A stretch of DNA of 64,000 bases from Phycisphaeraceae bacterium (GTDB lineage: Bacteria > Planctomycetota > Phycisphaerae > Phycisphaerales > Phycisphaeraceae). The notes under the pieces are model-generated. The model worked only from the letters and a program-made list of their open reading frames with translations, was not told the DNA's origin and searched no databases. Below, piece by piece: positions 15,568 to 59,080 of the stretch. The stretch spans positions 8,822-72,821 of the forward strand of contig JADLAP010000081.1 of assembly GCA_020848195.1 (NCBI GenBank). The letters run 5' to 3'. Made by a program: the position numbers and the translations under genes. Each line of letters begins with the position of its first letter. Within the stretch, counting starts at the first letter, position 1.

Positions 15568-15592
15568 TCAAACGCACGTGGGAAACGGGTCA

Positions 15593-18270: not shown

Positions 18271-18281
18271 GGTGTTGCTCC

Positions 18282-19391: not shown

Positions 19392-19398
19392 AAGTGTT

Positions 19399-19603: not shown

Positions 19604-19608
19604 AGTCT

Positions 19609-19655: not shown

Positions 19656-19666
19656 CAAACGGAAGG

Positions 19667-22515: not shown

Positions 22516-22552
22516 CCGCCGCTTGCGGCGTCGCGGAAACACTCCCCTCACC
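22516..22552 (+). repeat. REP-C copy
   Basis: CCGCCGCTTGCGGCGTCGCGGAAACACTCCCCTCACC, preceded by GCGAG, giving the CGAGCCGC core shared with the other REP families. Confidence 0.7.
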
Positions 22553-24623: not shown

Positions 24624-24729
24624 TCTATCCGGCCTGCGCAGCTTGGCTGCGGTCACTGGCTGTCGGGAATAAGGATGACCGTCTGTTCGGCGGACAAGAC
24701 GAGGTGGTGGTGGAGGGCGAGGCAGGCGG
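24624..24729. repeat. right copy of ~104-nt direct repeat (functional 3' end of the PQQ/TPR gene)
   Basis: Contains the stop at 24653-24655 and the coding sequence for ...HHHLVLSAEQTVILIPDSQ*. Confidence 0.75.
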
Positions 24730-29143: not shown

Positions 29144-29158
29144 CTGAAAAACCGGGCA

Positions 29159-29270
29159 TGACGAGCCGCGACCGTCAGGGAGCGGACCGCCTCCCAACAA
29201 GGGGGTGCCTCGCAACAACCAGCACCCCAGGCGGCGGAAGATCGTCCGCTCCCTCACGGTCGCGGCTCGT
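29159..29270. repeat. REPIN-B element
   Basis: TGACGAGCCGCGACCGTCAGGGAGCGGACCGC (29159-29190) and inverted partner GTCCGCTCCCTCACGGTCGCGGCTCGT (29244-29270). Confidence 0.75.
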
Positions 29271-29361
29271 AAAATTGGGATGCGCTGGCTGTGCTTCCCC
29301 GCCATGTCATCAGTGTAGCCGCTTCCCCGAGCCAAATGGACTTTGTTATCCTGTTGTTCAG

Positions 29362-37414: not shown

Positions 37415-39100
37415 GTGCTGATCCTGACCGTCATTCAGGGACCGGACAAGGGCCGGCGGTTCGAGCTGCCCGACGATGAACCGCAACTGGTCGGTCGCTC
37501 CAGCGAAGCGCTGCCGCTGCAGGACCAGACCATCTCCCGCCGCCACGCGGAGCTGACACCGGACAGCGGCAAATGGGTGCTCAACGACCTCAAAAGCGCC
37601 AACGGCACATTCGTCAACGGCCACCGCGTGACCCGGCCCCGCCTGCTGCAGCCGGGCGACCAGATCCGCTGCGGCCAGACCCTGTTCGTCTTCGGCCGCG
37701 ACCTGCGACCCGCCCGGCGCGACGCCCTTCGCGTTTCCCCACGCGAGGAACTGGAAGTCAGCGTCGAATCCACCGCCATCAGCAATGACGAATCCGTCAT
37801 CATGGCGGTGCCCGAACCGACCGAGGGCGCCGTCCTCCAGCTCAAGGTCGTCTACGAACTGACGCAGCTCATCGGCTCCACCGCCGAACGCGAACGTCTG
37901 CTCGAAGGCGTCATGGACCTGATCTTCGACTACTTCCAGGCCGATCGCGGCTTTATCCTTCTGCAGGATGATCCCGACGGAAAGTACGAACCCGTCGTCC
38001 TGCGCCACCGCAACCGGCAGAAAGATTCCAAGACCCATCCCATTCACGTCAGCCGCACCATCGTGCAGCACGTCATCCGCAAGGGCGAGGGCGTGCTGTC
38101 GAGCAACGCGATGACCGATCAGCGGTTCCGCGACGGCGACAGCGTGCTGGGCCTGGGCATCCACTCGGCGATGTGCGTGCCGATCAAGTTCAAGGACCGC
38201 ATCTTCGGCGTCATCCACATCGACAGCCAGATCGCCAACTACACCTTCACCGACGACCAGCTTCGCCTGCTGATCGCCATCGGCGTACATACGGGCCTGG
38301 CGCTGGCCAACGCGGAGCTGTACGCCGACCGGCTGAACCAGGAACGCCTGGCGGCCGTGGGCCAGACCGTGGCGTCGCTGTCGCACTCGATCAAGAACAT
38401 CCTCCAGGGCATGCGCGGCGGGGCGGATGTCGTCGAACTGGGCTTCAAGAAAAACAACATGAAAGTCGTGCAGGGCGGCTGGCAGATCGTCTCCCGCAAC
38501 CTCGAGCGCATCTACGAACTGACGATGAACATGCTCGCCTACTCCAAGCAGCGCCAGCCGGAGCTGGAGATGACCAATCTGCAGCCGCTGCTGGAGGACG
38601 TGGTGAGCCTGATGCAGTCGCAGTTCGACGGGAAGAAAGTGGCGCTGATCACGGACTTCACCAGCGACATGCCGCCGGCCCCGATCGACATGGGCGGCAT
38701 GCACCAGGCGCTGCTCAACCTGATGGGCAACGCGCTGGACGCGGTGGAACCGGAAAAGGGCGCGGTGACGCTGTCGTGCGACTACGATGACCGCACGCAG
38801 CAGGTGCTGGTGAGCGTGACGGACAACGGCACGGGCATCGAAGCCGATCGCGTCAAACGCCTGTTTCAACCCTTCAATTCGACCAAGGGCCTCAAGGGCA
38901 CGGGCTTGGGCCTGGTGGTGACGAAGAAGATCGTGGAAGAGCACGGCGGAGCGATCGGCGTGGAAAGCGCGCCGGGCAAGGGCACGACATTCACCATCCG
39001 CCTGCCCTGCTCGGTGGAGTCGATTCCATCGCTGGCGGACACGCAAGGCCCGGCGGGAGGGCACGACAGCACGCCGCGAAGCGAAGGTGAAACGAGCTGA
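37415..39100 (+). CDS. FHA-GAF-histidine kinase
   Basis: GTG start. FHA domain: GRSSEALPLQDQTISRRHAEL...NDLKSANGTFVNG. A GAF-like middle region. H-box SLSHSIKNIL. N/G boxes NLMGNALDAV, DNGTGI, GTGLGLVVTKKIVEEHGG. Confidence 0.85.
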   Translation: MLILTVIQGPDKGRRFELPDDEPQLVGRSSEALPLQDQTISRRHAELTPDSGKWVLNDLKSANGTFVNGHRVTRPRLLQPGDQIRCGQTLFVFGRDLRPARRDALRVSPREELEVSVESTAISNDESVIMAVPEPTEGAVLQLKVVYELTQLIGSTAERERLLEGVMDLIFDYFQADRGFILLQDDPDGKYEPVVLRHRNRQKDSKTHPIHVSRTIVQHVIRKGEGVLSSNAMTDQRFRDGDSVLGLGIHSAMCVPIKFKDRIFGVIHIDSQIANYTFTDDQLRLLIAIGVHTGLALANAELYADRLNQERLAAVGQTVASLSHSIKNILQGMRGGADVVELGFKKNNMKVVQGGWQIVSRNLERIYELTMNMLAYSKQRQPELEMTNLQPLLEDVVSLMQSQFDGKKVALITDFTSDMPPAPIDMGGMHQALLNLMGNALDAVEPEKGAVTLSCDYDDRTQQVLVSVTDNGTGIEADRVKRLFQPFNSTKGLKGTGLGLVVTKKIVEEHGGAIGVESAPGKGTTFTIRLPCSVESIPSLADTQGPAGGHDSTPRSEGETS

Positions 39101-39109
39101 TTGTCCCGG

Positions 39110-41998
39110 CTACTGCCCGCTTGCCGCCGACGCGGCATAGATCCAGCCCAGCGTCTCAACCATGTCGAGGCTGACGTCGTCCGGATGCGCGAGGATGGCG
39201 TCGCGGCAGTCGCGCATGCCCTGGAGATACGCGGGATTTCCCGTTTGAAGCCAGGCATAGCCGCACATGCCGCCGATGTTGGTCGTCCATCGCGCGGTGG
39301 CGGGTCTTCCCATGTTGAGGTTGTTTTCCGGATTGGGGCTGTAGACGAACATGCCGGGCTGAGGAGAACATTCCGCCAGCAGGCCGTCGACGAGGAGGCA
39401 GAGCAGGCGCAGGGCTTCGGGATTGCCCGTGGCGCGGTGGCAACGGATCAGGCCGTGACCGAGGTAGGCGGTCATGAAGGGCACCGCGCCCTGGTAGTTC
39501 CACACGCCGTGGCGGTCTTCGAAGATGCCTCGCCGGGGTTCGATGAAGGCGCGGGCGGCCTGGAGCAGTTCCCTGGATTTGGCGAGAAAACGTGGATCGT
39601 CGGTTTCGTCATACCACCGGCTGACCTGCGACAGGGGCCAGCCGACGGCACGGGCCGAGCGGGCGAAGCTGTAGCATTGGAGGACATGTTCCGACAAGCC
39701 CCTGGCCGCTTCGAGGCTGTCGGGGTCGCCGGTGAGCAGGTAATGTTCGAGTTGATCGTCGGTGTTCAGTCCGATGTTGCCCGTAGCCACGCCGCTGGTA
39801 TGGTCCGCGCTGTACTGGTGAATGGAGCCGACCCAGTCGGGATGTTCGGGGCAGTAACGGATCAGATCGACGTCGGCGTTGTGCCTGCAGGCGGCGTCGA
39901 AGTAGCGCAGCCAGCGTGGATCGCCGGTGATGAGGTGGCGCAGCAGTCCCGCGTGAGCCCGGCCGCGGTAGCCGTTCATCCATGCGGTATCCCAGTATTC
40001 GCGGTGACCGAGCCGTGGGATGTCGATGCCGCTGGCGGCCAGATGGGGCGCCAGCGTGTCGTCGACGCCGGCGGGCAGTTGCGCGGGGCCGGTCTCCAGC
40101 GCGCCGCAGTCCAGGAACCACGTCCGATCGCACAGCCGCGGCGCGTCCTGCACGCAGGCGTTGAACGCATCGGCCTGTCCGGCGGATATGGCCTGATGTT
40201 CAAACCACAACGCGAACGTCTGACGTTTGCTTTCGCCCCGGCCCAGACGCACAAACGGGACATCATGCCGCCACGTCATCGCTTCGAGCGCCTCGGGCAA
40301 CGTGCATAACGCCAGCTTGTCCGAGCGAATCCAGATGCCCTTGGGATATTCCTCGGCAAACCAGCGCATCGAGGCCACCAGTGAAACCTCGTTTCCGCTC
40401 AGCCGGACATATCCCGGCGCGCGGGAAGCCATGCCCACGGGCAAAGTGGCGTGATACGTCATGGCGAGATCAGCCTGCTCCTGCCGGCAGAGCAGATCGA
40501 TGTTGTCGACCACCCTCATCGCGCGAGGATCGGCCTTCATCGGCTTGCCACCGCCGGCCCGCGACCAACTTTCCTTCGCCCACTGCTCGTCGGTGATCGG
40601 CTCAAAGGCGCCGAAATCCGCCGTCGCTCCAGGCTGCTTCGGCATCTCCATCTGCGCGGACCAGTCCAGCAGCATGGCCATGGACTGGTCGCTTTCATTG
40701 ACCACGCGCCAGTCGACCAGCACATACGGCAGACCGGCCCAGACCTGCACCCGCGCCTGCCACGGCCCCAAGCGTGTTCCTTCCTTCGACCGCATTTCGC
40801 CGTCCAACCGCAGCACCACGCGCACGGCATCCTCGCGTTCCACGGTAATCGTGCGGCGATCGCCGACGAACGCTTCCAGCCAGCCGACGCGGTTGAGCTT
40901 CATGGACAACCGGCAAGGCCCCGCCATGCGCAGGCCGTCGCGCGTGATCTGCTCAAACAGGCCTTCGCCCTGCTCGTTGCCCAGGCGGATGGACAGCGTG
41001 CCGTTCTCGATGGTCAGGCCCTGTTCGCCGCGCTCAACGCGCACCGGCGACGCCGGCGCGACGCCGGGTTGACCGAGTCGCAGGCGATACGATCCCGGGC
41101 CTGACGCGACAAACTCGCACAGCAGCCAGCGCACGCTGCCGTCGGGCCAATGGCTGGTTTCGGTGATCACCACGGGGACCGCTTCGCCGTCTGCACGTTC
41201 GAGCCTGATTTTCGTTCCCGCGGGACAGCAACCTTCCGGCATCGGCACGCCGCAACGGACGGGATAGCCCGCCGCCGGCAGATCGCCCGGCGTCCACAGA
41301 TTCAGCGTCACCGCCTCCGGCTGCTTCGTCTGTGTCGTCGCGGCGTTGGGAGCCTGCCACGTCCGTGGGGATGGACGATACGGCTGATCCGACAGGCTCA
41401 GCGCCACATCGCCGAAGAACGCGTTGGTCTGGAAATGCGACGCAATCCGCGCCGGGTCCTGCGTGCTCCATGAGTAGGGCCAGAACATGTCGTCGGGCAG
41501 CCGGGTCGTGCTGGCCACGCGGTCGATCATGCGGAACTCCAGGTCCAGTTCCTTGCGTCCTCGCGGCTCAAGCGTCAGCACGACACAGCCGTCGCGGAAC
41601 GCCGGTTCGGCCTGCTCATCCACCGTGGCCGGCTGCACAGGCTCCAACCACTCATCCGTGGCGACGTCCTGTTCCCATACCACCTGGCCATCGACGAGCA
41701 ACTGTTTGAAGCGATGTCCGTTGAACGCCTGCACGCCGAGCCAGTCGTGTTCGTCGCGGTGCGAGCCGTGGTAGTTGTCGGACTGATAGAAGGAAAGATA
41801 GACGCGCTGGGCTTTGGCCAGATCGGGCGGCAGGCTCACGTGGGCGCGCCATGCGCCTTGATGGCCTTCGGCGCTGGTGACCCAGGGATGGTGAATCTGC
41901 ATCAGGCCGCGGAAATCGGTCTGGCCGGTGTACGGGCCGTTTCCATTGAACAGCCACGAAGCGGCCGCCACGCACACACGAAACGTTTCGGCTGACAT
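39110..41998 (-). CDS. large CAZyme-like hypothetical protein (beta-rich N-terminal and middle regions plus a C-terminal alpha/alpha-toroid-like region)
   Basis: Track ORF 39110..42058 trimmed to the ATG at 41998. YPVRCGVPMPEG...WPDGSVRWLL is reminiscent of the N-terminal barrel of PL26/PcRGLX-like lyases (weak memory). The helical C-terminal third has LTGDP..L repeats. No obvious signal peptide. Confidence 0.65.
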   Translation of the reverse strand: MSAETFRVCVAAASWLFNGNGPYTGQTDFRGLMQIHHPWVTSAEGHQGAWRAHVSLPPDLAKAQRVYLSFYQSDNYHGSHRDEHDWLGVQAFNGHRFKQLLVDGQVVWEQDVATDEWLEPVQPATVDEQAEPAFRDGCVVLTLEPRGRKELDLEFRMIDRVASTTRLPDDMFWPYSWSTQDPARIASHFQTNAFFGDVALSLSDQPYRPSPRTWQAPNAATTQTKQPEAVTLNLWTPGDLPAAGYPVRCGVPMPEGCCPAGTKIRLERADGEAVPVVITETSHWPDGSVRWLLCEFVASGPGSYRLRLGQPGVAPASPVRVERGEQGLTIENGTLSIRLGNEQGEGLFEQITRDGLRMAGPCRLSMKLNRVGWLEAFVGDRRTITVEREDAVRVVLRLDGEMRSKEGTRLGPWQARVQVWAGLPYVLVDWRVVNESDQSMAMLLDWSAQMEMPKQPGATADFGAFEPITDEQWAKESWSRAGGGKPMKADPRAMRVVDNIDLLCRQEQADLAMTYHATLPVGMASRAPGYVRLSGNEVSLVASMRWFAEEYPKGIWIRSDKLALCTLPEALEAMTWRHDVPFVRLGRGESKRQTFALWFEHQAISAGQADAFNACVQDAPRLCDRTWFLDCGALETGPAQLPAGVDDTLAPHLAASGIDIPRLGHREYWDTAWMNGYRGRAHAGLLRHLITGDPRWLRYFDAACRHNADVDLIRYCPEHPDWVGSIHQYSADHTSGVATGNIGLNTDDQLEHYLLTGDPDSLEAARGLSEHVLQCYSFARSARAVGWPLSQVSRWYDETDDPRFLAKSRELLQAARAFIEPRRGIFEDRHGVWNYQGAVPFMTAYLGHGLIRCHRATGNPEALRLLCLLVDGLLAECSPQPGMFVYSPNPENNLNMGRPATARWTTNIGGMCGYAWLQTGNPAYLQGMRDCRDAILAHPDDVSLDMVETLGWIYAASAASGQ

Positions 41999-42033
41999 TG
42001 CAATCGTCCTTGGCCAATAAGCGGTCACGCGGA

Positions 42034-43194
42034 TCAGGACAGGTGTTGCCGGAACCACTCCAGCGCCTGCTGCTGAATCTCCGCGTCGTAACAGTGAGGT
42101 TTATCCGGGGCGTAGTTTTGAAAACGGTTGGGACAGCCGGCCCATGCGTAGGCATCGGCGATCTGCCGCGCCGCGTCGCGCTGGCCGGCGGGCGGGAACA
42201 GGATGTCCTGCGTGCCGCTGACGACCATGCACGCTTTGGGGGCCGCCATGGCGATCAGGTCGGGAATGTCCAGCCGATTCCACACACCGGGCAACAGGCA
42301 GAACGTGCCGATTGCGCCGGCGAGGTTGTACGTCTGCTGCGTGTCGCCGGTGGTCATCCAGCCGACGGGCACGGCAGCGCGGATGCGGTCGTCGAGGGCC
42401 GCCATGAGGTTGGTCCGCCACCCGCCGCCGGACAGGCCGGTGACGCCGATGCGCGAGCCATCGACCTCGGGCCGCGACAGCAGGTAATCCACGCACCGGC
42501 TGTCGTCGCCGAAGTTGACGCCGCACCACGTCGTGCCCGCCCAGTTGAGCTGGCGGACGCCGTAGTACAGGTGCTCGCCGAGATACCGCTGAAATTCATA
42601 CAGCGAAGCGAGAGGAATGTTCCAGGGATCGATCTCGTCGGGCAGGCCGAACAAACCTCGCGGCGCGCGGCGACCGAAGTGGTAGGCGTCGATGGTGATG
42701 ACGCAGAATCCCTGCGAGGCGAACCAGTCGGACAGCGCCCGGCCGGAGGTGTAGGTGTTGCGATGTTCGGCGATGACGGGATGCGTGTCGGGGCCGCAGA
42801 CGCGTTCAGCGCCGAAGAGCATCGGCCCGCCCCATTCGTGCATCACCACCAGAGCCGGCGCGGGCAGCTTCACGCCCTTGGGCACGTAGAAATAGCCCGG
42901 CACGCGGAACCACGGCGCGGTGTTGAACTCGATGCGTTCGCGGATGAACTGATCGGTTTCCCGGCGTTCCAGCACGCTGGGCCTCAGGTCCGGTTCGCCG
43001 GGATCGTAATGCAGAGCTTCGCGCAGGCACTGCTGGACGAGCTTACGCCATGGGCCGAACGTTCCGTCGGGATGCGCCAGCCGCCATTGCCGGGCGTTCA
43101 AGTCCAGCGGCCGGCCGGCGCGCAATTGGCGCATCACAGGCTCCAATGAGCCGTAGGTGTTCAGCGATTCACGACCGAGTTGCTCAGTATTCAT
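42034..43194 (-). CDS. alpha/beta hydrolase, acetyl-xylan-esterase / dienelactone-hydrolase-like
   Basis: Track ORF 42034..43203 (TTG) trimmed to the ATG at 43194. Nucleophile elbow IGVTGLSGGGW preceded by PAPALVVMHEWGG. Confidence 0.75.
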   Translation of the reverse strand: MNTEQLGRESLNTYGSLEPVMRQLRAGRPLDLNARQWRLAHPDGTFGPWRKLVQQCLREALHYDPGEPDLRPSVLERRETDQFIRERIEFNTAPWFRVPGYFYVPKGVKLPAPALVVMHEWGGPMLFGAERVCGPDTHPVIAEHRNTYTSGRALSDWFASQGFCVITIDAYHFGRRAPRGLFGLPDEIDPWNIPLASLYEFQRYLGEHLYYGVRQLNWAGTTWCGVNFGDDSRCVDYLLSRPEVDGSRIGVTGLSGGGWRTNLMAALDDRIRAAVPVGWMTTGDTQQTYNLAGAIGTFCLLPGVWNRLDIPDLIAMAAPKACMVVSGTQDILFPPAGQRDAARQIADAYAWAGCPNRFQNYAPDKPHCYDAEIQQQALEWFRQHLS

Positions 43195-43209
43195 GGCTAA
43201 CAACCGTGA

Positions 43210-45666
43210 TTATTCCGAATCGGGCAGACGATCGGTGATTTCCAGCACCGCCAGGTTGCCGGTGTTCCGCGTGTCGATGCCGAGTTTGGGCGTCAGGGGC
43301 AGCTTCTTTCCCGCCAGATGGTCGTAGAGGAACATGCCCGGCTTGGCTCCAAGGCCGGAGAGGTCGAGCGTCAGATCGCCCGGCTCGCCGACGCCTTGAT
43401 TGCAGTGGGAAACGACGGTGATCAGGGCCTGACGGTGCGGCTGATTGAGCACATGCACGCGGCAGACGGTGCGGACCTCGGGGGCCATGACTTTCTGGAA
43501 GCCTTCATCGTCGCGGGTTTCGATCGGCCTGGCTTGGGCGGACTTGGCGAATTTCACCAGGTTGTCGCGGCGTGTGCCGTGCTGGTAGTAGTCTTCGATG
43601 TCCGCGATCAGCGTGTTGACCTGGGAGAGTCCGACCATCCACCGCGCGTCGGCGAAGCCGTTGGTGGCGATGTAGAAGCCGATGCCCTTGACCACGGGGG
43701 AGATGGAAAGCATATCGATCGACATGAACCGCGCGCTGACGGGTTTTTGCATCTGCGAACCCATGGAGACCAGCAGCAGCGGGATCATGTCGGGATAGCC
43801 GTTGTGCTTGCCGTAGACTTTGGCGTCCGCGCCCTGGGTGATGAAATCGCCATAGAACGAGCCGAAGAAGTTCAGGCCGTACCATTGGGGCATGTTGTAG
43901 TCGTAGGTTTTACCCCAGGTCATCTGTTCCGCCAGAGGCAGATCATCCACGCCGTGCTGGGAGCCGAAGGCGCCGGCGGTGTTGATGACGATGCATCCGG
44001 GCTTGGCTTCGCGCAGGGCCTCGGCGAGGTTGGCCAGCACCTGGGCGAAGAGGGCGTTGTTGTAGCTGGTCCACTGTTTGGCGTAGGTGCTGCCCAGCGA
44101 TTCGACGGTGACCTTGGCCGGGTCGAGTTTCATCCGCTGGGCGAAGTCGGCCAGCGTGGTGGGATCGTAGCTGAGGACCATGCCTTCCAGGCCGTCGTTG
44201 ACGAAGCCGTTGTACTGGAAAGGCAGGCCCAGTTCGGCAGGCCGGCGGATCAGGCGTTGCATGCCATTCAAGGCGGCATCGACCCAATAGCGACCCCGGC
44301 CGGCGGCGTAACGCATGTTGAACATGTCCTTGTCCACGCTGCCGTCGGCGTGAACCACATACATGTCCGGGTCATCCTTCTCGCGGGGCGCGGTGTCCCA
44401 GTAGTAGACGCCCTTGGCGTCAGCGCCGCCGAGCAACTGGGAGAAATTGGGCCAGAACTCGCGGATGCCGTACGCCACCGCCGCCTTGGCCATGACCTGT
44501 TCATCCGCATGCACCGGCGCTGTTTTCCGCGGGCCGGGACCGAAGTATTCGCTCCAGACGTTGAAACCCATCAGCTTGAACTGCGCGGGGATCGTCGCCA
44601 GTCGGCCGTCGAAATCCGCCCGCCAGCTCTGCACGTGGTAAGCGAAGGTCTTGGTCAGCGTGGGAGTCTTCTGCCTCGCCGGGGCATCCAGCGGCACGAG
44701 ACGGAAGGTTTCCTCCGTGACCACGGCATCACGATCGCTGACGCTGAACCTGACCCAGGATTCGACGCCGGTGGGCACTTCGACAAAGCAGCCGCCGAAT
44801 TCCATGGGATTGTCCGCGCCATCGAAAAACCGCGGACCAACGAACCGATACGTGGTCAGCTTCTCTCCGTCGGCCCCCTGGCTTTGCTGCGTAGCCAGTT
44901 CAATCTTGTCGACGCCGTCCGGTTTCTGGCTGTTCAGCAGCGGCACGTTGATGCCGGTGAGCAGCACTTCCGCGGGCACGGTGATGGCGAAAACCGGCCG
45001 GCCCACCCGGCTGGCGTCCTGGGCGGTGAGGGTGAAGTCGAGCCATTGCTTCATGCCGCGAATGTACGTCTGAATGTTGTTGGATCGTTCCCCGCCGGCG
45101 GGATGCAGGTCCAGATGCAGATACTGGCCGGGCAGCGGATCGTCGGCGTTGTAGCGGGTCAGCGAGATGTCATCCACCGCCAGACCAAGTTCGATGGAGA
45201 TCAGGCTGACGGGATATTCGCCGGCGGCCTGGACTTTGAACACGGCGTAGTACAGCCGGTAACGGTCGGAAATGACGCAAGCCAGGTGCTTCTGATCGCC
45301 GAGGGCAAGCTGGATCCTGGGCGAAATGGTGCAACCGTTGTTGCGAGCCCAGACGGTCAGGAGGTAGTCGCCCGCATCGAGTTTCACGTTCTGGCGCAGG
45401 CGGGTGTTGGCGGAGTAGATTTCCAGGGCGTTGTCGCCGGTGTGAGGCAGCGCGTCGCCGTGTCCGCCGCCGCCGCCGGGGTGCAGGCGGTAGTGGTAGA
45501 GCGGAACCTTGGGATTCACCGGCTCGACGACCCAGCCTGTCAGCCAGCCCGCGTGGTCCTCGAAGCCGGGATTGGTCAGCAGATTGTCCGGGCCTGCGTG
45601 AGCCTGCAGGCCCAGGCCCAGCAACGCAAGCGTGACCGTCGATGCGAGAACAGTCAATCGGCGCAT
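43210..45666 (-). CDS. secreted protein with N-terminal CBM4/9/22-like jelly-roll domain plus a large unknown domain
   Basis: Signal peptide MRRLTVLASTVTLALLGLGLQAHA, then NLLTNPGFEDHAGWLTGW...LEIYSANTRLRQNVKLDAGDYLLTVWARN. AGGAG upstream. Confidence 0.75.
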   Translation of the reverse strand: MRRLTVLASTVTLALLGLGLQAHAGPDNLLTNPGFEDHAGWLTGWVVEPVNPKVPLYHYRLHPGGGGGHGDALPHTGDNALEIYSANTRLRQNVKLDAGDYLLTVWARNNGCTISPRIQLALGDQKHLACVISDRYRLYYAVFKVQAAGEYPVSLISIELGLAVDDISLTRYNADDPLPGQYLHLDLHPAGGERSNNIQTYIRGMKQWLDFTLTAQDASRVGRPVFAITVPAEVLLTGINVPLLNSQKPDGVDKIELATQQSQGADGEKLTTYRFVGPRFFDGADNPMEFGGCFVEVPTGVESWVRFSVSDRDAVVTEETFRLVPLDAPARQKTPTLTKTFAYHVQSWRADFDGRLATIPAQFKLMGFNVWSEYFGPGPRKTAPVHADEQVMAKAAVAYGIREFWPNFSQLLGGADAKGVYYWDTAPREKDDPDMYVVHADGSVDKDMFNMRYAAGRGRYWVDAALNGMQRLIRRPAELGLPFQYNGFVNDGLEGMVLSYDPTTLADFAQRMKLDPAKVTVESLGSTYAKQWTSYNNALFAQVLANLAEALREAKPGCIVINTAGAFGSQHGVDDLPLAEQMTWGKTYDYNMPQWYGLNFFGSFYGDFITQGADAKVYGKHNGYPDMIPLLLVSMGSQMQKPVSARFMSIDMLSISPVVKGIGFYIATNGFADARWMVGLSQVNTLIADIEDYYQHGTRRDNLVKFAKSAQARPIETRDDEGFQKVMAPEVRTVCRVHVLNQPHRQALITVVSHCNQGVGEPGDLTLDLSGLGAKPGMFLYDHLAGKKLPLTPKLGIDTRNTGNLAVLEITDRLPDSE

Positions 45667-45726
45667 GGATTACTCCTGTTGAAATGCGCAGGAAACAGAC
45701 TGAATTTCAATTAAAGGGCGGATTGT

Positions 45727-46491
45727 TCAATGGTCGTCGAGGGACCATGTGTCGCTGAAGTTCCATGTGCCGGTGTACGGGTAGGGATCGACGGGCACTG
45801 CCTCGGGGCTTACCGCGGCCACATGCAGATCGAGGAAGGAAATATTGGTTGCTTTGGAATGGCGGTAGGCGATCGAGTCCGACCGCCAGACGACGCAGGT
45901 GCCGTTGTTGAGGTTATGCCAGTAGTCGTAGCCGGTTTCAGGGAGCCAGTAGCGGTAGGAAGGCTTGGGCACGCGGTCGGCACGGACAAAATGGAAAGGC
46001 GCGCCATACGCACTGGCCAGCACGGAGAACCAGCCGTTGATGCCGTAGCTGCAGTTGGGATAGGGACTGCTGCCGATGAGATAGGTGGGACTGGTGGTGC
46101 CGTCGAAGCCGCCTTCGGGACACTGGGTCAGCGGCAAAGCTCTGGGCGGCGCGACGCCGCCTTCAAAGTTGTAGTAGCTGTAGGACGGGGGCATGTTGAT
46201 GTAGTCGCCGATGCCGCCGCTGCTTTTGGCGTTGAAGAGGATATTGGACACGGCGTTGCCTGCTGGTGCGTAGAACTTGTTGTCGGTCAGATAATTCGAC
46301 GCGCCCATGCCCAGTTGGCGCAGGTTGGACATGCACTGCACGCGCCGGCCCGCCGCCCGCGCCGACGTCAGGGCGGGCAGCAGCATCGCAATTAAAAGAG
46401 AAATGATCGAAATCACCACGAGAAGCTCGATGAGCGTAAACCCCGTGGGATCCGTTTGGCGTGACCATGATGTGGAATGAGTTCGTTTCAT
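45727..46491 (-). CDS. DUF1559-type prepilin-leader protein
   Basis: Track ORF 45727..46584 trimmed to the ATG at 46491 (GAGGAG 9 nt upstream). ...[29 protein letters not shown]-terminal [19 protein letters not shown]. Confidence 0.85.
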
Positions 46492-46603
46492 GATGTCGTG
46501 CTCCTCATCCAGGCCTCTGGCCGGGCCCAACAGGGTCCGGTTCAGCCTGTCCAGGTTATCGGCGATATCCGCCATCCGGTTCATGCCGCTTACAGACTGA
46601 GGG

Positions 46604-47689
46604 TCAACGGGCGACCGCCGAGGCCGTCCCTCCAGCCGACGCCCGCCACTGGAACCGCATCTCCACCCGACCCGCTTGCAGCGGTTGTTCCGGGTTTTCC
46701 AATCGATGGAACATGAACTGATCGATCAGCCGGGCCGTCTCGGCGTCCTGACGCACCACGGTGGCCAGCGGCGGTTGAACGAATCGGGCGAACTCGCTGT
46801 CGTTGAAGCCGCAGACCGCCACGTCCTCCGGCACGCACAGACCGCGTCGGCTCAGCCACGCGATGGCGGCGATGGCGGTTTCGTCATTGGTGCATTGCAG
46901 CGCATCGAAGTCCGGCCGGCCGGGGAACATTTCGTTCAGCCCGTGGGTGATATCGTCCGCCCAGTAGGCGTCCAAAACGCCCGGCGTCGAAGGCGGCGCT
47001 TCCAGGAGACGTATCGCCGAAGCGGGAACGCCCAATTCCTCCAGCCGGGCGACGTAGGCGTCGACCTTCGGCTGATTGGCGATGATGCTGCCGGTCAACA
47101 GCGCTGGTTTCCGTCGGCCGGTACGGAAAAAATGTTCCGCCGCGTCGCGGAAAGCCTGGCCTCGGTCGTGGATCACATGGTCCACCATGCAGCCATACAA
47201 CTCCGATACTGAACTGCACGAAACCACCACCGCCGGGAACCCGGCAAGCAACCGCCGCACGGCGTCATTGTCGAACAGGTTGCCGCCGGCCTGGATGACG
47301 ATGCCGTCGACGCCGCGACGGGCGAAGTCCTCCAGAGCCTGGATGGTCGCGCGCCACAGGCCCATGTGGTCGGCCAGATACGTCACGTAAGCGTGCTCGG
47401 AGAATTGCCGGGCGATGCGTCGCGCCATGCCTTCACCGTCGTGCGGACCGCCGAGGGACCACAGCAGGCCGATGGATTTGGTCTTGCCCCCCCGCAGACC
47501 GGCCGCCATCGTGTTGGGCTTGTACCGCAGTTGCCTGGCGGCGTCGCGGATACGCTGCTGCGTGTCGGATCGAACGCCCAGATCATCCCCCCTGCCGTTG
47601 AGCACCAGGCTCGCCGTGGCGCGGCTGACCCGCGCCAACTCGGCGATGTCCTTCATGGTCGGCAGATTCAGTCCGTTCTGACGCGACAT
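46604..47689 (-). CDS. LacI-family transcriptional regulator
   Basis: Track ORF 46604..47719 (TTG) trimmed to the ATG at 47689. [25 protein letters not shown]. Confidence 0.85.
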
Positions 47690-47727
47690 GGGAGGTTCCG
47701 GGGTTAGGTCATCAGGCAACGAATATC

Positions 47728-47756
47728 AATCTAACACGAGATAGATGGCAAGTCAA
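47728..47756 (-). promoter_or_regulatory. sigma70-like promoter of the second LacI module
   Basis: Minus strand reads TTGACT (47756-47751), 17 nt, TAGATT (47733-47728). Same -10 hexamer and spacing as at 19399-19427. Confidence 0.45.
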
Positions 47757-47943
47757 TCGATTTTTGAAGCCGCAAACGGTCAAAGAGGCGAATGCCCGAA
47801 AGTCCAAGCCCGAATGACGAAGCTAGACGAAGACGCCTTGCTTCGTCCTTTGGACCTGGACCTTCGGCCATGGCATCCCCGATGTGGTATACAATGCCCC
47901 TTTTCCGCCAAACCCGTGACCATACCAACAGGGAGATTTCGAT

Positions 47944-49395
<1,452 letters not shown>

Positions 49396-57037: not shown

Positions 57038-58981
57038 TCAACTGCTGGCGCGGACCTGTTCGCGCAATTCGTTGTGTTTGGGGTTGGCCTTGTCCTCGTC
57101 CACGGTGCGTTCCATCAGCGCGCCGGTGTTGTTGTCGAGATAGATCATGCGGGTGGTGGTTTTGTTGGGCAGGCCGCCGGGCGCCGGGGCGTCGTAGTCG
57201 ATGTCCACGACGATGCCGCCGACGTTCATGTTGACGTTGGATTTGCCCTCGTTGTAGGTTTTCTCGACGACACCGCCGATGGGGTCGCCGGGCTGGACCT
57301 GGAATTCGTGGCTCTGCATCTTGCCGCCGAAGATGCAGTACACCTCGACGGTGGCGGACTTGTTCTGCTTGTTGCCCGTCGTGAGGAAGAAGTACTGTTC
57401 GGGGAAGATCTGCACCGGCTCGGTCCATTCGCTGGGTTCGGAGCTGAGGGTGAGCTTTTCGTAGAACTCGCGGCGCTGCAGGGCGGGAACCTGGGACTGG
57501 TAGAACAGCGGATCGATCACGGAGGCGATGACGCGATAGCGGATGCTCTGGCCGGGCTTGACGCTGATGTCGTGCTGCCAGATTTTGACGGTGCCGAGGT
57601 TGGGCATGTCGCGTGGCGATTCGCCGGGGGATCCGGGGCTTCCGGAGGTGTTGCCGTGAATGGGCATGACGCTGTCCGTGCCCTGTTGAACGAGACTGAC
57701 ATCGACGTCATGGATGCCCAGGAGCCTGTAGAGTTCGCTGGTGCGGCTCTGGAGCCGGGCTTCCAGGCCTGGCAGATCGAGGGGGAGTTTGGATTCGTCG
57801 ATGGCTTCCTCCGCGGCTGGCGCGCCCCGGCCGGCGGGCGCGGGTGTCGCGGGATTGCCGGGCGACGCAGGCGTGCCTGACGTGCCGGGGGAACCGGGGG
57901 AGCCGGGGGTTCCGGGGGAGGCGGGGCCGGACGTCCGGGTCCGCGTCGGCGTCACGATCGCGGGCCGCTCGCCGGCACCATCCTTGCGAAGCTGTTTGAT
58001 CTGCTCCTGGAACTTGCGGATGTCGTTGACGAGGGCTTGCAGTTTTTCCGCGTCACCGGGCGCCATCAGCGCGGGATTGGCCTCCGGGGGCAGCCAGATG
58101 CCCTGGTCGAGCGAGGGGAACGGAGGCCGGGCCAGACGCACGCGCTCGGCCCGCGCCGTCTCCAGCGCGGCCTTGGCTTCCGGCGGCGCCCACTTCTCCA
58201 CCGGACGACGGTAATTGACCGACAGCTTCGGCAGGAACTCGATCTCCTCGTTGCCCGGCACCGGAGGCACCGTCTCGATCGGCCCCCACTGCCCCGTCGC
58301 CGGATCCTTCACCTGTCGCTGGAGCACCACGTCCGCCACCAGCAGCACATTGCGCCACCAAGGCTCTGGAATCTGCTGACGATTGGCTTCCGGCGGCTTG
58401 GCCACCAGGCGGGTGCGCCACGTGTTGAGATCGAATTCCGCGCTGACGCTGATCCACTGGAAGTCGCGCGGCTTCTGGTCGCCGATGATCGCCTCGAATG
58501 ACCGCAGCCGCATCGGGTCCGGCGGATCCGTCAGCACCCCGAAGCCGATGCCCGTTTTGAGCGCGATGGGCGCCGGGGGCATCGGTACGAAATACGGATT
58601 GCGTTCCAGAGGCTCGGCGATCTGGAATTCCCTGGCGTTGAGGCCCGGCAGGCCCATGATGGCGGTGAACGCCGGCACGGGAAGAACGTGGCGGCTGTAC
58701 CGGGTCCAGAACTCGTTGGTGTACGGCGGCACGGTCAGCGTCATGCCCTTGAACGGCGACGGCGCGCTGTCGGAAATCTTCCGGCTCAGAGTCTCCGCTT
58801 CCTTGAGGATCAGCCGTTCCACGTCATCCGGCTGCACCGTGTCCTTGCGCGGGCCGAAGGTGACGGCGTACGGATTGGACAGGGCATAAAACCAGAGCAC
58901 GAAAAGGGCGAACACGGCGGCGATGCCGAGCACCACTTTCTCGACGTATTTCTCGAAGAGGTTGACGTTCTTCAGTTGCAT
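57038..58981 (-). CDS. bitopic membrane protein, possible greatly expanded PilP-like component
   Basis: N-terminal TM VVLGIAAVFALFVLWFYAL. SPGTPGSPGSPGTSGTP linker. The C-terminal beta-rich region with VQPGDPIGGVV is reminiscent of PilP. Third gene of the pilM-led operon. Confidence 0.65.
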   Translation of the reverse strand: MQLKNVNLFEKYVEKVVLGIAAVFALFVLWFYALSNPYAVTFGPRKDTVQPDDVERLILKEAETLSRKISDSAPSPFKGMTLTVPPYTNEFWTRYSRHVLPVPAFTAIMGLPGLNAREFQIAEPLERNPYFVPMPPAPIALKTGIGFGVLTDPPDPMRLRSFEAIIGDQKPRDFQWISVSAEFDLNTWRTRLVAKPPEANRQQIPEPWWRNVLLVADVVLQRQVKDPATGQWGPIETVPPVPGNEEIEFLPKLSVNYRRPVEKWAPPEAKAALETARAERVRLARPPFPSLDQGIWLPPEANPALMAPGDAEKLQALVNDIRKFQEQIKQLRKDGAGERPAIVTPTRTRTSGPASPGTPGSPGSPGTSGTPASPGNPATPAPAGRGAPAAEEAIDESKLPLDLPGLEARLQSRTSELYRLLGIHDVDVSLVQQGTDSVMPIHGNTSGSPGSPGESPRDMPNLGTVKIWQHDISVKPGQSIRYRVIASVIDPLFYQSQVPALQRREFYEKLTLSSEPSEWTEPVQIFPEQYFFLTTGNKQNKSATVEVYCIFGGKMQSHEFQVQPGDPIGGVVEKTYNEGKSNVNMNVGGIVVDIDYDAPAPGGLPNKTTTRMIYLDNNTGALMERTVDEDKANPKHNELREQVRASS

Positions 58982-59080
58982 GCCGTCGGCCTTTCCGGGC
59001 GTCGGGTGGATTCGGGCTTGCGGGCGCGTCGACCGTGGGACAAGCCCCGGCGCATCCTGGCCGCACGCGCAAGGTCAGGG

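What the first reader, a model, noticed from the sequence alone, without database searches (positions are those of the whole stretch)
39110..47756. Module 2 repeats the same architecture: LacI, DUF1559, CBM-bearing secreted protein, esterase and a 962-aa CAZyme-like protein
This is a second minus-strand array with the same logic as 8858-19427. The order is a promoter (TTGACT-17-TAGATT), a LacI-family regulator, one DUF1559 prepilin-leader gene, an 818-aa secreted protein with a CBM-like N-terminus, an alpha/beta-hydrolase esterase (GLSGGG), and a 962-aa protein with an alpha/alpha-toroid-like C-terminus. Intergenic gaps among the last four genes (DUF1559 to the 962-aa protein) are short (15-60 nt); about 112 nt separate the LacI stop from the DUF1559 start. 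Finding the pattern twice in 64 kb argues that the regulator-pseudopilin-enzyme linkage is functional rather than accidental.
Basis: partly seen in the sequence, partly recalled or inferred. Interest (0 to 1): 0.62.

Follow-up and report, generated by a model that had tools for sequence, protein, structure and literature searches.

The report
LacI-headed glycan-enzyme operon with pseudopilin gene
This is a sugar-repressor-headed operon from an uncultured wastewater bacterium that encodes three carbohydrate-degrading enzymes plus one member of the large, unexplained DUF1559 pilin-like family; it is a fairly ordinary locus, but it supports the idea that these pilin-like proteins work with the secreted proteins encoded next to them.

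Summary
On the minus strand, 47756 to 39110 holds a sigma-70-like promoter and five genes:
- a LacI/GalR regulator;
- one prepilin-leader DUF1559-like gene;
- an 818-aa signal-peptide protein;
- a GLSGG alpha/beta-hydrolase;
- a 962-aa protein.

Gaps are 112, 60, 6-15 and 35 nt. No terminator-like site lies between genes.

Structure prediction refines the enzymes. The 818-aa protein is a four-domain TIM-barrel glycoside-hydrolase-like enzyme with a CBM-like N-terminus, from a very rare family. The 962-aa protein has the PL26 exo-rhamnogalacturonan-lyase architecture with a GH127-like six-hairpin domain.

The window holds exactly two LacI genes and four prepilin genes. Every prepilin gene lies directly downstream of a LacI gene.

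Outside the window the linkage is a minority arrangement. Five of 131 DUF1559 loci carry a LacI, always in the same cluster, for example LacI-DUF1559-GH10 in a Phycisphaeraceae genome. Homologues of the module's enzymes occur elsewhere without pseudopilins. A broader rule does hold: the gene just downstream of a DUF1559 gene carries a signal-peptide-like N-terminus in 55% of cases against a 20% background.

Verdict: a substrate-inducible CAZyme operon of a PVC-type bacterium. The pseudopilin's role is inferred and co-transcription is untested. Interest is moderate.

The parts
47728..47756 (-). Sigma-70-like promoter: TTGACT, 17-nt spacer, TGT-TAGATT (extended -10). It lies upstream of the LacI gene.
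   Evidence: Sequence read and scan. This and one overlapping match are the only promoter-like sites in 38900-48000. The LacI of module 1 has the same hexamers (TTGACC-17-TGA-TAGATT). An 18-bp imperfect palindrome with a central CG (47729-47746) overlaps the -10; it is a candidate operator and is not statistically significant.
46604..47719 (-). LacI/GalR-family transcription regulator. 371 aa from TTG 47719; more likely 361 aa from ATG 47689.
   Evidence: Pfam LacI HTH E 9e-13, Peripla_BP_3 E 2e-20, Peripla_BP_1 E 2e-11. NCBIfam best partial matches are RbsR, GntR and MalI, all far below the equivalog cut-offs. About 33% identical to the module-1 LacI over the 91-residue N-terminal alignment.
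46492..46603 (-). 112-nt spacer between the LacI stop and the pseudopilin start.
   Evidence: No promoter-like or terminator-like site. Contains a 17-bp near-palindrome GGATATCGCCGATAACC at 46554-46570; the chance of such a match in a region this size is about 0.1.
45727..46491 (-). DUF1559-like type IV pilin/pseudopilin-type protein, 254 aa. It has a 17-aa leader, a G|FTLIELLVV cleavage/methylation motif, a conserved Cys pair and a C-terminal RH-X9-D-L-H motif.
   Evidence: N_methyl and PF07596 are above cut-off, but PF07596 covers only model positions 2-41. TIGR02532 is above cut-off; the best partial model is GspG positions 2-61. PDB profile hits cover the N-terminal helix only, and the globular domain has none. 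H211, D221 and H223 are invariant in 27 homologues.
43210..45666 (-). Secreted 818-aa glycoside-hydrolase-like enzyme. Domains: signal peptide, CBM-like beta-sandwich (about 30-175), second beta-sandwich (about 180-330), (beta/alpha)8 barrel (about 340-700), C-terminal beta-sandwich.
   Evidence: AlphaFold2 model with pLDDT 85.8 and pTM 0.85. Foldseek top hits are GH39, GH2, GlgE/GH13, GH96 and GH50 enzymes at E 1e-12 to 1e-8 but whole-chain TM of 0.2-0.36; the barrel alone matches Cwp19 at TMt 0.60. No Pfam, NCBIfam or PDB sequence hit. The profile gives a marginal CBM61 hit at E 0.1. The family is rare: 15 proteins by word-seeded search, and 24 at E<=1e-30 among 1.84 billion representatives.
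42034..43203 (-). Alpha/beta-hydrolase, a candidate carbohydrate esterase. 389 aa from the TTG start; nucleophile elbow GLSGG; no signal peptide detected.
   Evidence: Pfam Abhydrolase_7 E 2e-9, DLH, AXE1 and weak GCE_fung. PDB hits are 6goc (DUF3826 domain-containing protein), 3nuz (putative acetyl xylan esterase) and AXE/cephalosporin deacetylases, at E 4e-5 to 5e-3. The Ser (GLSGG) - Asp (SGTQD) - His (KPHCY) order is read from the sequence and is an inference. N-terminus checked.
39110..41998 (-). 962-aa PL26-like / six-hairpin enzyme. Domains: N-terminal beta-sandwich, RIFT barrel, central beta-sandwich, C-terminal (alpha/alpha)6 barrel. No signal peptide.
   Evidence: Pfam PcRGLX_1st and PcRGLX_2nd. 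AlphaFold2 model with pLDDT 84.5 and pTM 0.87. Foldseek matches PcRGLX (5xq3, 5xqo) at E 1e-26, TM 0.55-0.59 and 15% identity; the barrel also matches polysaccharide lyase 5noa. The profile hits PcRGLX at E 6e-13 and six-hairpin glycosidase 6ex6 at E 1e-3. About 50 homologues of roughly 45-50% identity; those that carry a taxon name come from Latescibacteria, Armatimonadota, Verrucomicrobia and Gemmatimonadota MAGs.

Best explanation
Module 2 is a substrate-inducible carbohydrate-active-enzyme operon of an uncultured PVC-type bacterium (Planctomycetota or a relative) from wastewater.

Proposed mechanism:
1. A LacI/GalR repressor is transcribed from a strong sigma-70-like promoter. In the absence of a sugar or oligosaccharide ligand it most likely represses the whole array (inferred).
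2. The array encodes one exported multi-domain TIM-barrel glycoside-hydrolase-like enzyme with a CBM-like N-terminus. It would attack the polymer outside the cytoplasm.
3. It also encodes two enzymes without signal peptides that would finish imported fragments. One is a serine carbohydrate-esterase-like hydrolase. The other has the PL26 exo-rhamnogalacturonan-lyase architecture with a GH127-like six-hairpin domain.
4. This enzyme set points to an esterified, uronic-acid- or rhamnose-containing glycan (pectic, gum-like or exopolysaccharide). The substrate is inferred, not shown.
5. The first structural gene is a DUF1559-like protein with a type IV prepilin leader. It should be cleaved by a prepilin peptidase and held in, or polymerised from, the inner membrane.
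6. Its most likely role (inferred, about 35% on its own) is as a module-specific subunit or adaptor of a type II secretion / type IV filament-like machine. It would help export or surface display of the exported protein encoded next to it.

Shown here: the gene content, the folds, the spacing and the recurrence of similar arrays. Inferred: repression by LacI, co-transcription, the substrate and the pseudopilin's role.
For: - Gene order, domains and spacing.
- The only promoter-like sites lie upstream of LacI, and no terminator-like site lies between genes.
- Folds.
- There are 2 LacI genes and 4 prepilin genes in the window, and all are paired.
- The same logic is seen elsewhere:
  - L074 Phycisphaeraceae, LacI-DUF1559-GH10;
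  - L029 Lentisphaeria, LacI-704aa-DUF1559-DUF1559-SSF;
  - L147, partial LacI then DUF1559;
  - L035, divergent LacI/DHDPS, then pseudopilin, BNR-like, LamG/FG-GAP and SSF genes;
  - L044, a pseudopilin between two heparinase II/III-like genes;
  - L094, regulator-pseudopilin-DUF4838-994aa followed by a second pseudopilin-enzyme copy.
- The gene immediately downstream of a DUF1559 gene on the same strand has a signal-peptide-like N-terminus in 29 of 53 cases, against 130 of 634 other genes in the same loci (odds ratio 4.7, p 2e-7). This rule also holds in both window modules.
- The N-terminus resembles GspG-type pseudopilins.
- A PilM-domain gene lies 13 kb away, at 60406-62706.
- Literature: a pulG-like pseudopilin sits in the alginate depolymerisation operon of Verruconatronum, most of whose genes were over-expressed on alginate. 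It has 67 paralogues, and the authors invoke type II secretion (PMC13274419). In Tuwongella, N_methyl+SBP_bac_10 genes are often flanked by signal-peptide genes (PMC8567305).
Against: - There are no transcript data. Only DNA runs from wastewater metagenomes hold the sequence, at 9-14% of sampled words.
- No convincing LacI operator was found; the palindromes seen are within chance.
- Only 5 of 131 DUF1559 loci have a LacI nearby. Up- and downstream neighbours across PVC genomes are heterogeneous.
- Homologues of the 818-aa and 962-aa enzymes occur without the LacI-pseudopilin arrangement. Some 818-aa homologues sit inside exopolysaccharide biosynthesis clusters.
- Two of the three enzymes lack signal peptides, so they cannot be type II secretion cargo.
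- The module has no transporter.
- No cargo-specific pseudopilin is known in characterised type II secretion systems (own knowledge).
It has no relative of solved structure by sequence.
Confidence: 0.6

Rival explanations
1. Bindosome-like reading. The DUF1559 protein is a glycan- or oligosaccharide-binding protein that uses the prepilin leader only as an anchoring and assembly signal. It would capture the module's substrate at the envelope and hand it to a transporter. This resembles the class III signal-peptide sugar-binding proteins of Sulfolobus, which are assembled by the Bas system.
For: - Pfam names PF07596 'SBP_bac_10'.
- Two LacI-linked arrays elsewhere end in a sodium:solute symporter-type gene (L029, L035).
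- There is a precedent for pilin-signal sugar-binding proteins (PMC3047682).
- Co-regulation with catabolic enzymes is what one expects of a binding protein.
Against: - Module 2 and module 1 contain no transporter.
- The window protein matches only positions 2-41 of the 268-position PF07596 model, the stretch directly after the N-terminal methylation motif.
- Its globular part is about 200 aa, with an invariant Cys pair and H-X9-D-x-H motif, and it has no sequence relative among solved binding proteins.
- The strongest general neighbour signal is an exported protein, not a transporter.
Confidence: 0.22
2. Coincidence reading. DUF1559 genes are so numerous and so evenly scattered in these genomes that two of them landing behind LacI genes means nothing. 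On this reading the pseudopilin genes are functionally unrelated passengers in, or next to, ordinary LacI-CAZyme operons.
For: - Genomes carry 41-100 or more copies, spread evenly (PMC8567305; also PMC10632474, PMC2754498).
- In 80 genome loci only 4 had a LacI within 8 kb, and the Pfam content of neighbours is diverse.
- Enzyme homologues do without pseudopilins elsewhere.
Against: - In the window, 2 of 2 LacI genes and 4 of 4 prepilin genes are paired, on the same strand, with gaps of 11 and 112 nt.
- All five LacI genes found near DUF1559 genes elsewhere sit in the same cluster. Three lie on the same strand upstream (two directly adjacent, one with one gene between) and two are divergent.
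- Downstream neighbours are enriched for signal peptides (p 2e-7).
- A pseudopilin was among the genes over-expressed on alginate in Verruconatronum (PMC13274419).
Confidence: 0.15

Closest known systems
Alginate-induced gene cluster of Verruconatronum alginivorum (Verrucomicrobiota), which includes a pulG-like pseudopilin (PMC13274419)
   Same: It is a polysaccharide-degrading enzyme cluster of a PVC bacterium with an embedded prepilin-type gene from a large paralogous family (67 copies). Most of the cluster's genes were over-expressed on alginate. The authors suggest a link to type II secretion.
   Different: It has different enzymes (PL15, PL39 and PL29 alginate/chondroitin lyases) and a uronate transporter. 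'LacI' does not occur in the paper's text. Its organism is cultured and has proteomic data; here there is sequence only.
DUF1559 / SBP_bac_10 + N_methyl paralogous family of Planctomycetes (PF07596; PMC8567305, PMC10632474, PMC2754498)
   Same: It shares the prepilin cleavage/methylation motif followed by the QC.SNL+Q.G region, a C-terminal H-X9-D motif and many paralogues. Its genes are often next to genes with signal peptides.
   Different: The window copies are short (254-267 aa) and match only the first 30-60 positions of the 268-position model. They are followed by 800-1200-aa enzymes. In the loci sampled, the 330-400-aa planctomycete copies are mostly followed by a 140-180-aa ORF, and the alignment consensus of the downstream partners shows a lipobox-like GC.
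Type II secretion major pseudopilin GspG/PulG
   Same: It shares the class III leader, Glu at +5 and the hydrophobic alpha-1 helix. GspG is the best partial NCBIfam model.
   Different: The score is 32 bits against a cut-off of 88.85. The globular domain is unrelated and about twice as large. The gene is not in a gsp operon, and it is one of many module-linked paralogues.
Bacteroidota polysaccharide utilization loci (SusC/SusD type) and LacI-headed CAZyme operons of other bacteria
   Same: They are also co-localised, presumably co-regulated enzymes for one glycan. They have an exported enzyme with a binding module plus intracellular finishing enzymes, and a sugar-sensing regulator at the head.
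   Different: This module has no SusC/SusD pair, no TonB-dependent transporter and no ABC or MFS transporter. It has a pseudopilin-type gene instead of a known binding protein.
PL26 exo-rhamnogalacturonan lyase PcRGLX of Penicillium chrysogenum (PDB 5xq3)
   Same: It has the same order of RIFT barrel, beta-sandwich and (alpha/alpha)6 barrel. Foldseek E 1e-26 and TM 0.55-0.59; profile E 6e-13.
   Different: Identity is 15%. The window protein has an extra N-terminal beta-sandwich of about 200 aa. The PcRGLX third-domain model is not matched, and the barrel also resembles a six-hairpin glycosidase (6ex6). Whether it is a lyase or a hydrolase is unknown.
Sulfolobus bindosome (sugar-binding proteins with class III signal peptides, Bas system; PMC3047682)
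   Same: Pilin-type signal peptides sit on proteins that serve sugar use rather than motility.
   Different: That system is archaeal, and its proteins are bona fide ABC-transporter binding proteins. Here no transporter is linked and the fold of the globular domain is unknown.

Membership tests
LacI/GalR transcription regulators | N-terminal LacI-type helix-turn-helix | tested here: met
   PF00356 E 9e-13, 48 bits against a cut-off of 27, residues 21-69 of the 371-aa reading.
LacI/GalR transcription regulators | C-terminal periplasmic-binding-protein-like effector domain | tested here: met
   Peripla_BP_3 E 2e-20 and Peripla_BP_1 E 2e-11.
LacI/GalR transcription regulators | Palindromic operator in the promoter of the regulated genes | tested here: inconclusive
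   An 18-bp imperfect palindrome with central CG overlaps the -10 (47729-47746). A 17-bp near-palindrome lies in the LacI-pseudopilin spacer (46554-46570). Both are within chance expectation.
Type IV pilin / pseudopilin superfamily (class III signal peptide) | Short basic leader, G|F cleavage site, Glu at +5, hydrophobic alpha-1 helix | tested here: met
   [17 protein letters not shown]|[26 protein letters not shown]07963 22.9 bits (cut-off 21.2); TIGR02532 26.5-26.7 bits (cut-off 16.3).
Type IV pilin / pseudopilin superfamily (class III signal peptide) | Prepilin peptidase and an assembly machine (ATPase, platform) in the same genome | not testable with these tools
   Only a 64-kb window of a 73.7-kb contig is available. 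A PilM_2-domain gene (E 1e-37) lies at 60406-62706. No peptidase or ATPase is in the window.
DUF1559 (PF07596, SBP_bac_10) | Match to the family model over the domain | tested here: inconclusive
   The 28.8-bit score exceeds the 23.3 gathering score, but only model positions 2-41 of 268 align. The module-1 copies score 20.7, 24.6 and 23.7 bits.
DUF1559 (PF07596, SBP_bac_10) | C-terminal H-X9-DG motif (TIGR04294) | tested here: inconclusive
   The sequence reads [14 protein letters not shown], that is H-X9-D with Leu in place of Gly. H, D and H are invariant in 27 homologues. The 22-position TIGR04294 model gives no hit for the window proteins.
Type II secretion major pseudopilin GspG | Full-length match to the GspG equivalog model | tested here: not met
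   TIGR01710 scores 32 bits against a cut-off of 88.85, on model positions 2-61 only.
Bacteroidota-type PUL | Adjacent susC-like and susD-like genes | tested here: not met
   No such Pfam family appears in any of the five genes of module 2 or the six genes of module 1.
Polysaccharide lyase family 26 | RIFT barrel + central beta-sandwich + (alpha/alpha)6 barrel | tested here: met
   PcRGLX_1st and PcRGLX_2nd are above cut-off. The model superposes on 5xq3/5xqo at TM 0.55-0.59, E 1e-26.
Polysaccharide lyase family 26 | Sequence membership of the catalytic third domain, and the catalytic residues | tested here: inconclusive
   There is no PcRGLX_3rd hit and identity is 15%. The barrel profile also hits six-hairpin glycosidase 6ex6, and some homologues carry faint GH127 hits. 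Catalytic residues were not mapped.
Carbohydrate esterase / serine alpha/beta-hydrolase | Alpha/beta-hydrolase fold with a G-x-S-x-G nucleophile elbow | tested here: met
   Abhydrolase_7 spans residues 48-367, and GLSGG is present. PDB relatives are annotated acetyl xylan esterases and 6goc.
Carbohydrate esterase / serine alpha/beta-hydrolase | Activity on a carbohydrate ester | not testable with these tools
   This needs an enzyme assay.
Glycoside hydrolase (TIM-barrel clans), 818-aa protein | (beta/alpha)8 catalytic barrel with flanking beta-sandwich domains | tested here: met
   The model has pLDDT 85.8. 175 PDB matches reach E<=1e-3, and the top matches are mostly glycoside hydrolases.
Glycoside hydrolase (TIM-barrel clans), 818-aa protein | Sequence membership of a described family, and identified catalytic acids | tested here: not met
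   There is no Pfam, NCBIfam or PDB sequence hit, and whole-chain TM-scores are 0.2-0.36. The invariant D491, E494 and D501 after barrel strand 4 are candidates only.

The most novel reading that the evidence does not exclude
The short DUF1559-type pseudopilins would be exchangeable, substrate-specific envelope modules. Each glycan-degradation operon would bring its own pilin-like subunit under the same sugar-sensing repressor. That subunit would adapt one shared type IV filament / type II secretion-like machine to the exported enzyme, or to the glycan, of that operon. If so, the large DUF1559 expansion in Planctomycetota, Verrucomicrobiota and Lentisphaerota would be the PVC counterpart of the SusD or bindosome layer of other glycan degraders.
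Probability: 0.2. Interest if true: 0.75.

Novelty: new member of a known kind. Interest (0 to 1): 0.4.

Why it matters
DUF1559 is reported as the largest paralogous group in Planctopirus limnophila (68 genes) and as a heavily expanded family in Planctomycetales (41-100 or more genes per genome). No function is assigned to it in the papers found here. Loci where such a gene sits between a sugar repressor and identifiable glycan-active enzymes suggest a concrete experiment: induce with a glycan, then follow the pseudopilin and the adjacent exported enzyme. The signal-peptide enrichment of the downstream neighbours is a simple comparative result in the same direction. The two enzymes are also of interest for enzyme discovery. 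One is a very rare TIM-barrel glycoside-hydrolase-like family with no described relatives. The other is a bacterial protein with the PL26 architecture and a GH127-like barrel. Apart from that, the locus is an ordinary LacI-headed CAZyme operon from an uncultured organism.

Tried and rejected
- **Exact look-up of the 818-aa protein** found no contig on record.
- **Looking for the whole module elsewhere.** Contexts of six homologues of the 818-aa protein and three of the 962-aa protein showed no conserved LacI-pseudopilin-esterase set. Module 2 is therefore not a conserved operon.
- **Homology between the enzymes of modules 1 and 2** was absent.
- **General LacI or CAZyme association of DUF1559 across PVC genomes** was rejected as a general rule.
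- **Metagenome scan with the globular domain.** The first alignment was too divergent. The second returned mostly short contigs that matched only the NLRQLG stretch; it added one more LacI-DUF1559 case.
- **Operator search** by inverted repeats and palindromes found nothing above chance.
- **Transcript evidence.** Only four DNA runs from wastewater metagenomes hold the sequence, at 9-14% of sampled words, and there is no RNA.
- **Taxonomic placement through 90% clusters.** All window proteins tested are singletons without names, so the organism is described only as PVC-type.
- **Sequence search of the module-1 1198-aa and 1032-aa proteins, and of the pseudopilin globular domain, against solved structures** found nothing.
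- **GGGAAGTCCAAAC as a dispersed repeat** was not enriched with mismatches allowed. The exact 9-mer GGAAGTCCA is enriched.

Full report
**1. What is in the sequence**

The minus strand between 47756 and 39110 carries five ORFs with the high third-position G+C (0.77-0.83) that marks the coding frame in this window.
- **LacI/GalR regulator, 46604-47719.** It has the LacI helix-turn-helix and a periplasmic-binding-protein-like effector domain. The HTH starts at residue 21 of the TTG reading, so ATG 47689 ([16 protein letters not shown]...) is the more likely start.
- **Prepilin-type protein, 45727-46491, 254 aa.** The leader is [17 protein letters not shown], followed by [10 protein letters not shown]_methyl and PF07596 (DUF1559) both exceed their gathering scores. 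The DUF1559 match covers only the first 40 of 268 model positions.
- **818-aa protein, 43210-45666,** with a typical signal peptide.
- **389-aa alpha/beta-hydrolase, 42034-43203.** It contains GLSGGG and matches Abhydrolase_7, DLH and AXE1. By sequence it resembles putative acetyl xylan esterases and chain 6goc.
- **962-aa protein, 39110-41998,** with the RIFT-barrel and central beta-sandwich domains of the PcRGLX family.

Gaps are 112, 60, 6 or 15 (depending on the esterase start) and 35 nt. TTGACT-17-TAGATT at 47756-47728 has a TG two bases before the -10. It and an overlapping match are the only promoter-like sites on either strand of 38900-48000, and no terminator-like hairpin lies between genes. 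The 3' end abuts a convergent FHA-GAF histidine kinase gene that ends at 39100.

**2. What the enzymes are**

*The 818-aa protein.* An alignment of 13 family members gave a confident model (pLDDT 85.8, pTM 0.85). The domains are:
- signal peptide;
- beta-sandwich at about 30-175;
- second beta-sandwich at about 180-330;
- (beta/alpha)8 barrel at about 340-700;
- C-terminal beta-sandwich.

Foldseek returns multi-domain glycoside hydrolases (GH39, GH2, GH13/GlgE, GH96, GH50, GH123, GH26-CBM35) at E down to 1e-12. Whole-chain TM-scores are only 0.2-0.36. The barrel alone superposes best on the Cwp19 barrel (TMt 0.60).

There is no Pfam, NCBIfam or PDB sequence match. The family profile gives only a marginal hit of positions 21-111 to a chain of an arabinogalactan endo-beta-1,4-galactanase (2xom, E 0.1). 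I recall that chain as its CBM61 module. 'CBM-like N-terminus' is thus plausible, but the protein is first of all an unclassified TIM-barrel glycoside-hydrolase-like enzyme.

The family is very rare. A word-seeded search of 5.8 billion clusters found 15 proteins. An exhaustive profile search of 1.84 billion representatives found 24 hits at E<=1e-30, many of them fragments. More distant members (37-40% identity) sit next to a GH38 mannosidase or inside an exopolysaccharide synthesis cluster with Wzz, GT4, EpsG, Wzy and a MurJ-like flippase. That is a typical place for a polymer-trimming hydrolase (own knowledge).

*The 962-aa protein.* The model (pLDDT 84.5, pTM 0.87) matches the PL26 exo-rhamnogalacturonan lyase PcRGLX over the whole chain (E 1e-26, TM 0.55-0.59, 15% identity). 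Its alpha/alpha barrel also matches polysaccharide lyase 5noa. The family profile hits PcRGLX at E 6e-13 and a six-hairpin glycosidase (6ex6) at E 1e-3. Some homologues carry faint GH127 hits. Whether the enzyme is a lyase or a hydrolase is open.

Neither this protein nor the esterase has a signal peptide. The first 20 residues of the 962-aa model are well-ordered beta-strands of the fold.

**3. Is the LacI-pseudopilin pairing more than chance?**

A six-frame scan for the prepilin motif finds exactly four ORFs in the 64 kb: the module-2 gene and the three module-1 genes. A phmmer scan finds exactly two LacI genes. Each LacI is directly followed on the same strand by prepilin gene(s), with gaps of 11 nt in module 1 and 112 nt in module 2.

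- Random order of about 50 genes gives about 0.005 for this pairing, or about 0.001 with strand.
- The DUF1559 densities reported for Rhodopirellula (74), Planctopirus (68) and Tuwongella (91) are 1-2% of genes. They give 1e-4 to 4e-4 (PMC2754498, PMC10632474, PMC8567305).
- The window was picked after the fact, so these numbers are indicative only.

Both LacI genes carry the same promoter hexamers (TTGACT or TTGACC, 17 nt, TGn-TAGATT). In module 1 an ATG lies 7 nt after the -10, which suggests a leaderless LacI message starting at 19391.

The three module-1 pseudopilins are tandem duplicates: 46-65% identical, with a DNA repeat period of 828-836 nt. The module-2 copy is only 30-33% identical to them but 38-46% identical to proteins from other metagenomes.

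**4. Evidence from elsewhere**

*Genome scan.* A scan of 185,579 species genomes with the four copies gave 80 loci. All but two carry PVC-group labels; one is labelled Armatimonadetes and one only 'bacterium'. Only four hold a LacI within 8 kb, but in all four it belongs to the same cluster as the pseudopilin:
- L074 (Phycisphaeraceae): LacI, DUF1559-like, GH10, all on the same strand.
- L029 (Lentisphaeria): LacI, a 704-aa protein, two DUF1559 genes and a solute-symporter-like gene.
- L057: LacI divergent from pseudopilin-DUF7133.
- L035 (Phycisphaeraceae chromosome): LacI and a DHDPS-family gene, divergent from an array of two unknown genes, a pseudopilin, a BNR-like protein, a LamG/FG-GAP protein and an SSF transporter.

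*Metagenome scan.* This added a partial LacI followed by a DUF1559 gene (L147).

*Other arrays with a pseudopilin and enzymes.*
- A Phycisphaerae contig has a pseudopilin between two heparinase II/III-like genes (L044).
- The closest named relative of the module-2 pseudopilin lies in a Lentisphaeria contig (L094). There, regulator-pseudopilin-DUF4838-994aa is followed by a second pseudopilin-DUF4838-1007aa copy. The enzymes are 53-58% identical and the pseudopilins only 29%.

*Evidence against a general rule.*
- Immediate upstream neighbours of 73 DUF1559 genes include only two LacI-type proteins.
- Up- and downstream neighbours are otherwise diverse: peptidases, PQQ propellers, phosphoesterases, a fucosidase, DUF1501, CotH and others.
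- The 330-400-aa planctomycete copies are mostly followed by a 140-180-aa ORF. The alignment consensus of the downstream partners shows a lipobox-like GC.

*One general signal.* The same-strand downstream neighbour of a DUF1559 gene has a signal-peptide-like N-terminus in 29 of 53 cases, against 130 of 634 for the other genes of the same loci (odds ratio 4.7, Fisher p 2e-7). The detector is a crude heuristic applied equally to both sets. The result agrees with a remark on Tuwongella (PMC8567305). It also holds in the window: the 818-aa protein in module 2, and the 1198-aa and 1032-aa proteins in module 1, all have such N-termini.

**5. How it most likely works**

*Shown:*
- a LacI-type regulator;
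- a prepilin-type gene and three carbohydrate-enzyme-like genes in an operon-like array;
- one exported enzyme and two apparently cytoplasmic ones.

*Inferred:*
- The repressor releases the array when it binds a sugar or oligosaccharide.
- The exported enzyme, with its CBM-like domain, attacks the polymer.
- The esterase and the PL26-like enzyme finish imported fragments.
- The likely substrate class is an esterified, uronic-acid- or rhamnose-containing glycan. This is a guess from the PL26/PL27-like fold and the esterase relatives.

*The pseudopilin.* My preferred reading is a module-specific subunit or adaptor of a type II secretion or type IV filament-like machine that serves the exported neighbour. 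The reasons are:
- the class III leader;
- the GspG-like N-terminus;
- the signal-peptide enrichment of downstream neighbours;
- a PilM-domain gene 13 kb away;
- the type II secretion suggestion made for the alginate cluster of Verruconatronum, whose pulG-like pseudopilin has 67 paralogues (PMC13274419).

*Main rival.* A bindosome-like binding protein, as in Sulfolobus (PMC3047682). The Pfam name and the symporter genes in L029 and L035 favour this. The lack of any transporter in either window module weakens it.

*Coincidence* remains possible but is the least likely of the three.

**6. Comparison with known systems, and novelty**

The locus is not a Bacteroidota-type PUL, because it has no SusC/SusD pair. 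It is a LacI-headed CAZyme operon, which is common. It carries a member of the DUF1559/prepilin expansion, which is well known in Planctomycetes and relatives. That such genes lie within glycan-degradation clusters has already been reported once, with expression data (PMC13274419). I therefore file it as a new member of a known kind.

What is new here is modest:
- LacI heads such arrays repeatedly in Phycisphaerae- and Lentisphaeria-like genomes.
- Each module keeps its own pseudopilin lineage.
- Downstream neighbours of DUF1559 genes are enriched for exported proteins.
- Two poorly described enzyme families are present.

The organism could not be placed. All window proteins tested are singletons at 90% identity. 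The only runs that hold the sequence are wastewater metagenomes.

**7. Limits**

- There are no transcript data.
- There is no whole genome for a census.
- No operator was found above chance.
- The signal-peptide test is heuristic.

Confidence is about 0.7 for 'LacI-controlled CAZyme operon that includes the pseudopilin gene' and about 0.35 for the export/display role. The overall figure of 0.6 refers to the combined statement with those parts marked as inferred.

Noticed in passing
window 57038-62706 (-): A 766-aa protein with a PilM_2 domain (E 1e-37) at 60406-62706 is followed on the same strand by 442-aa and 647-aa proteins with no Pfam match. This may be the assembly platform of a type IV filament or type II secretion-like machine, 13 kb from module 2.
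   Followed up: partly
window 19608-19657 and 22285-22303; also 47797-47809: The 9-mer GGAAGTCCA occurs 5 times (0.33 expected; no shuffle of 100 reaches 5). Two tandem copies lie just upstream of the GH116 start. An inverted pair (21-nt arms, 90% complementary) lies between the GH116 stop and the module-1 LacI promoter. A degenerate copy sits in a 38-nt imperfect inverted repeat upstream of the module-2 LacI promoter. It may be a regulator site; its function is unexplained.
   Followed up: partly
window 19567-19603 and 22516-22552: A 37-nt direct repeat (97% identical) that contains a GCCGC-AA-GCGGC hairpin lies upstream of both the module-1 LacI and the GH116 gene. This suggests a shared control or termination element.
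   Followed up: no
window 4411-4513, 15574-15743, 29140-29270: A REP- or MITE-like repeat with internal inverted arms is present in three copies. One copy fills much of the 268-nt gap between the third module-1 pseudopilin gene and the 1198-aa gene, so module 1 may not be one uninterrupted transcription unit.
   Followed up: no
window 15836-18270 (-): The three module-1 pseudopilin genes are tandem duplicates (46-65% identical; DNA repeat period 828-836 nt). They lie in the lowest-G+C stretch of the window (0.557, against about 0.63).
   Followed up: partly
window 19389-19427 (-): The module-1 LacI most likely starts at ATG 19391, only 7 nt after its -10 hexamer (a leaderless message). The TTG at 19427 given by the ORF list is the -35 hexamer itself.
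   Followed up: partly
window 2-1012 (-) and 19667-22237 (-): The window holds further glycan enzymes: a partial alpha-L-rhamnosidase-like six-hairpin protein at the window start, and a GH116 (beta-glucosidase 2-like) gene directly upstream of module 1.
   Followed up: partly
L094 272-16474: A Lentisphaeria contig carries regulator-pseudopilin-DUF4838-994aa followed by a second pseudopilin-DUF4838-1007aa copy. The enzymes are 53-58% identical but the two pseudopilins only 29%, so the pseudopilins diverge faster or were recruited separately.
   Followed up: partly
L010-L089 (80 genome loci): Long DUF1559 genes (330-400 aa) of Planctomycetota are mostly followed by a 140-180-aa ORF; the alignment consensus of the downstream partners shows a lipobox-like GC near residues 21-22. 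Short copies (230-300 aa), like those in the window, are more often followed by proteins of 400 aa or more.
   Followed up: partly
L004-L006 10001-12460: Homologues of the 818-aa protein (40% identical) lie inside an exopolysaccharide biosynthesis cluster (Wzz, GT4 genes, EpsG, Wzy-like, MurJ-like). This hints that the family trims bacterial exopolysaccharide.
   Followed up: no
window 24653-29335 (-): A 1560-aa PQQ/BamB-like beta-propeller repeat protein lies in the most G+C-rich part of the window (0.67-0.70).
   Followed up: no
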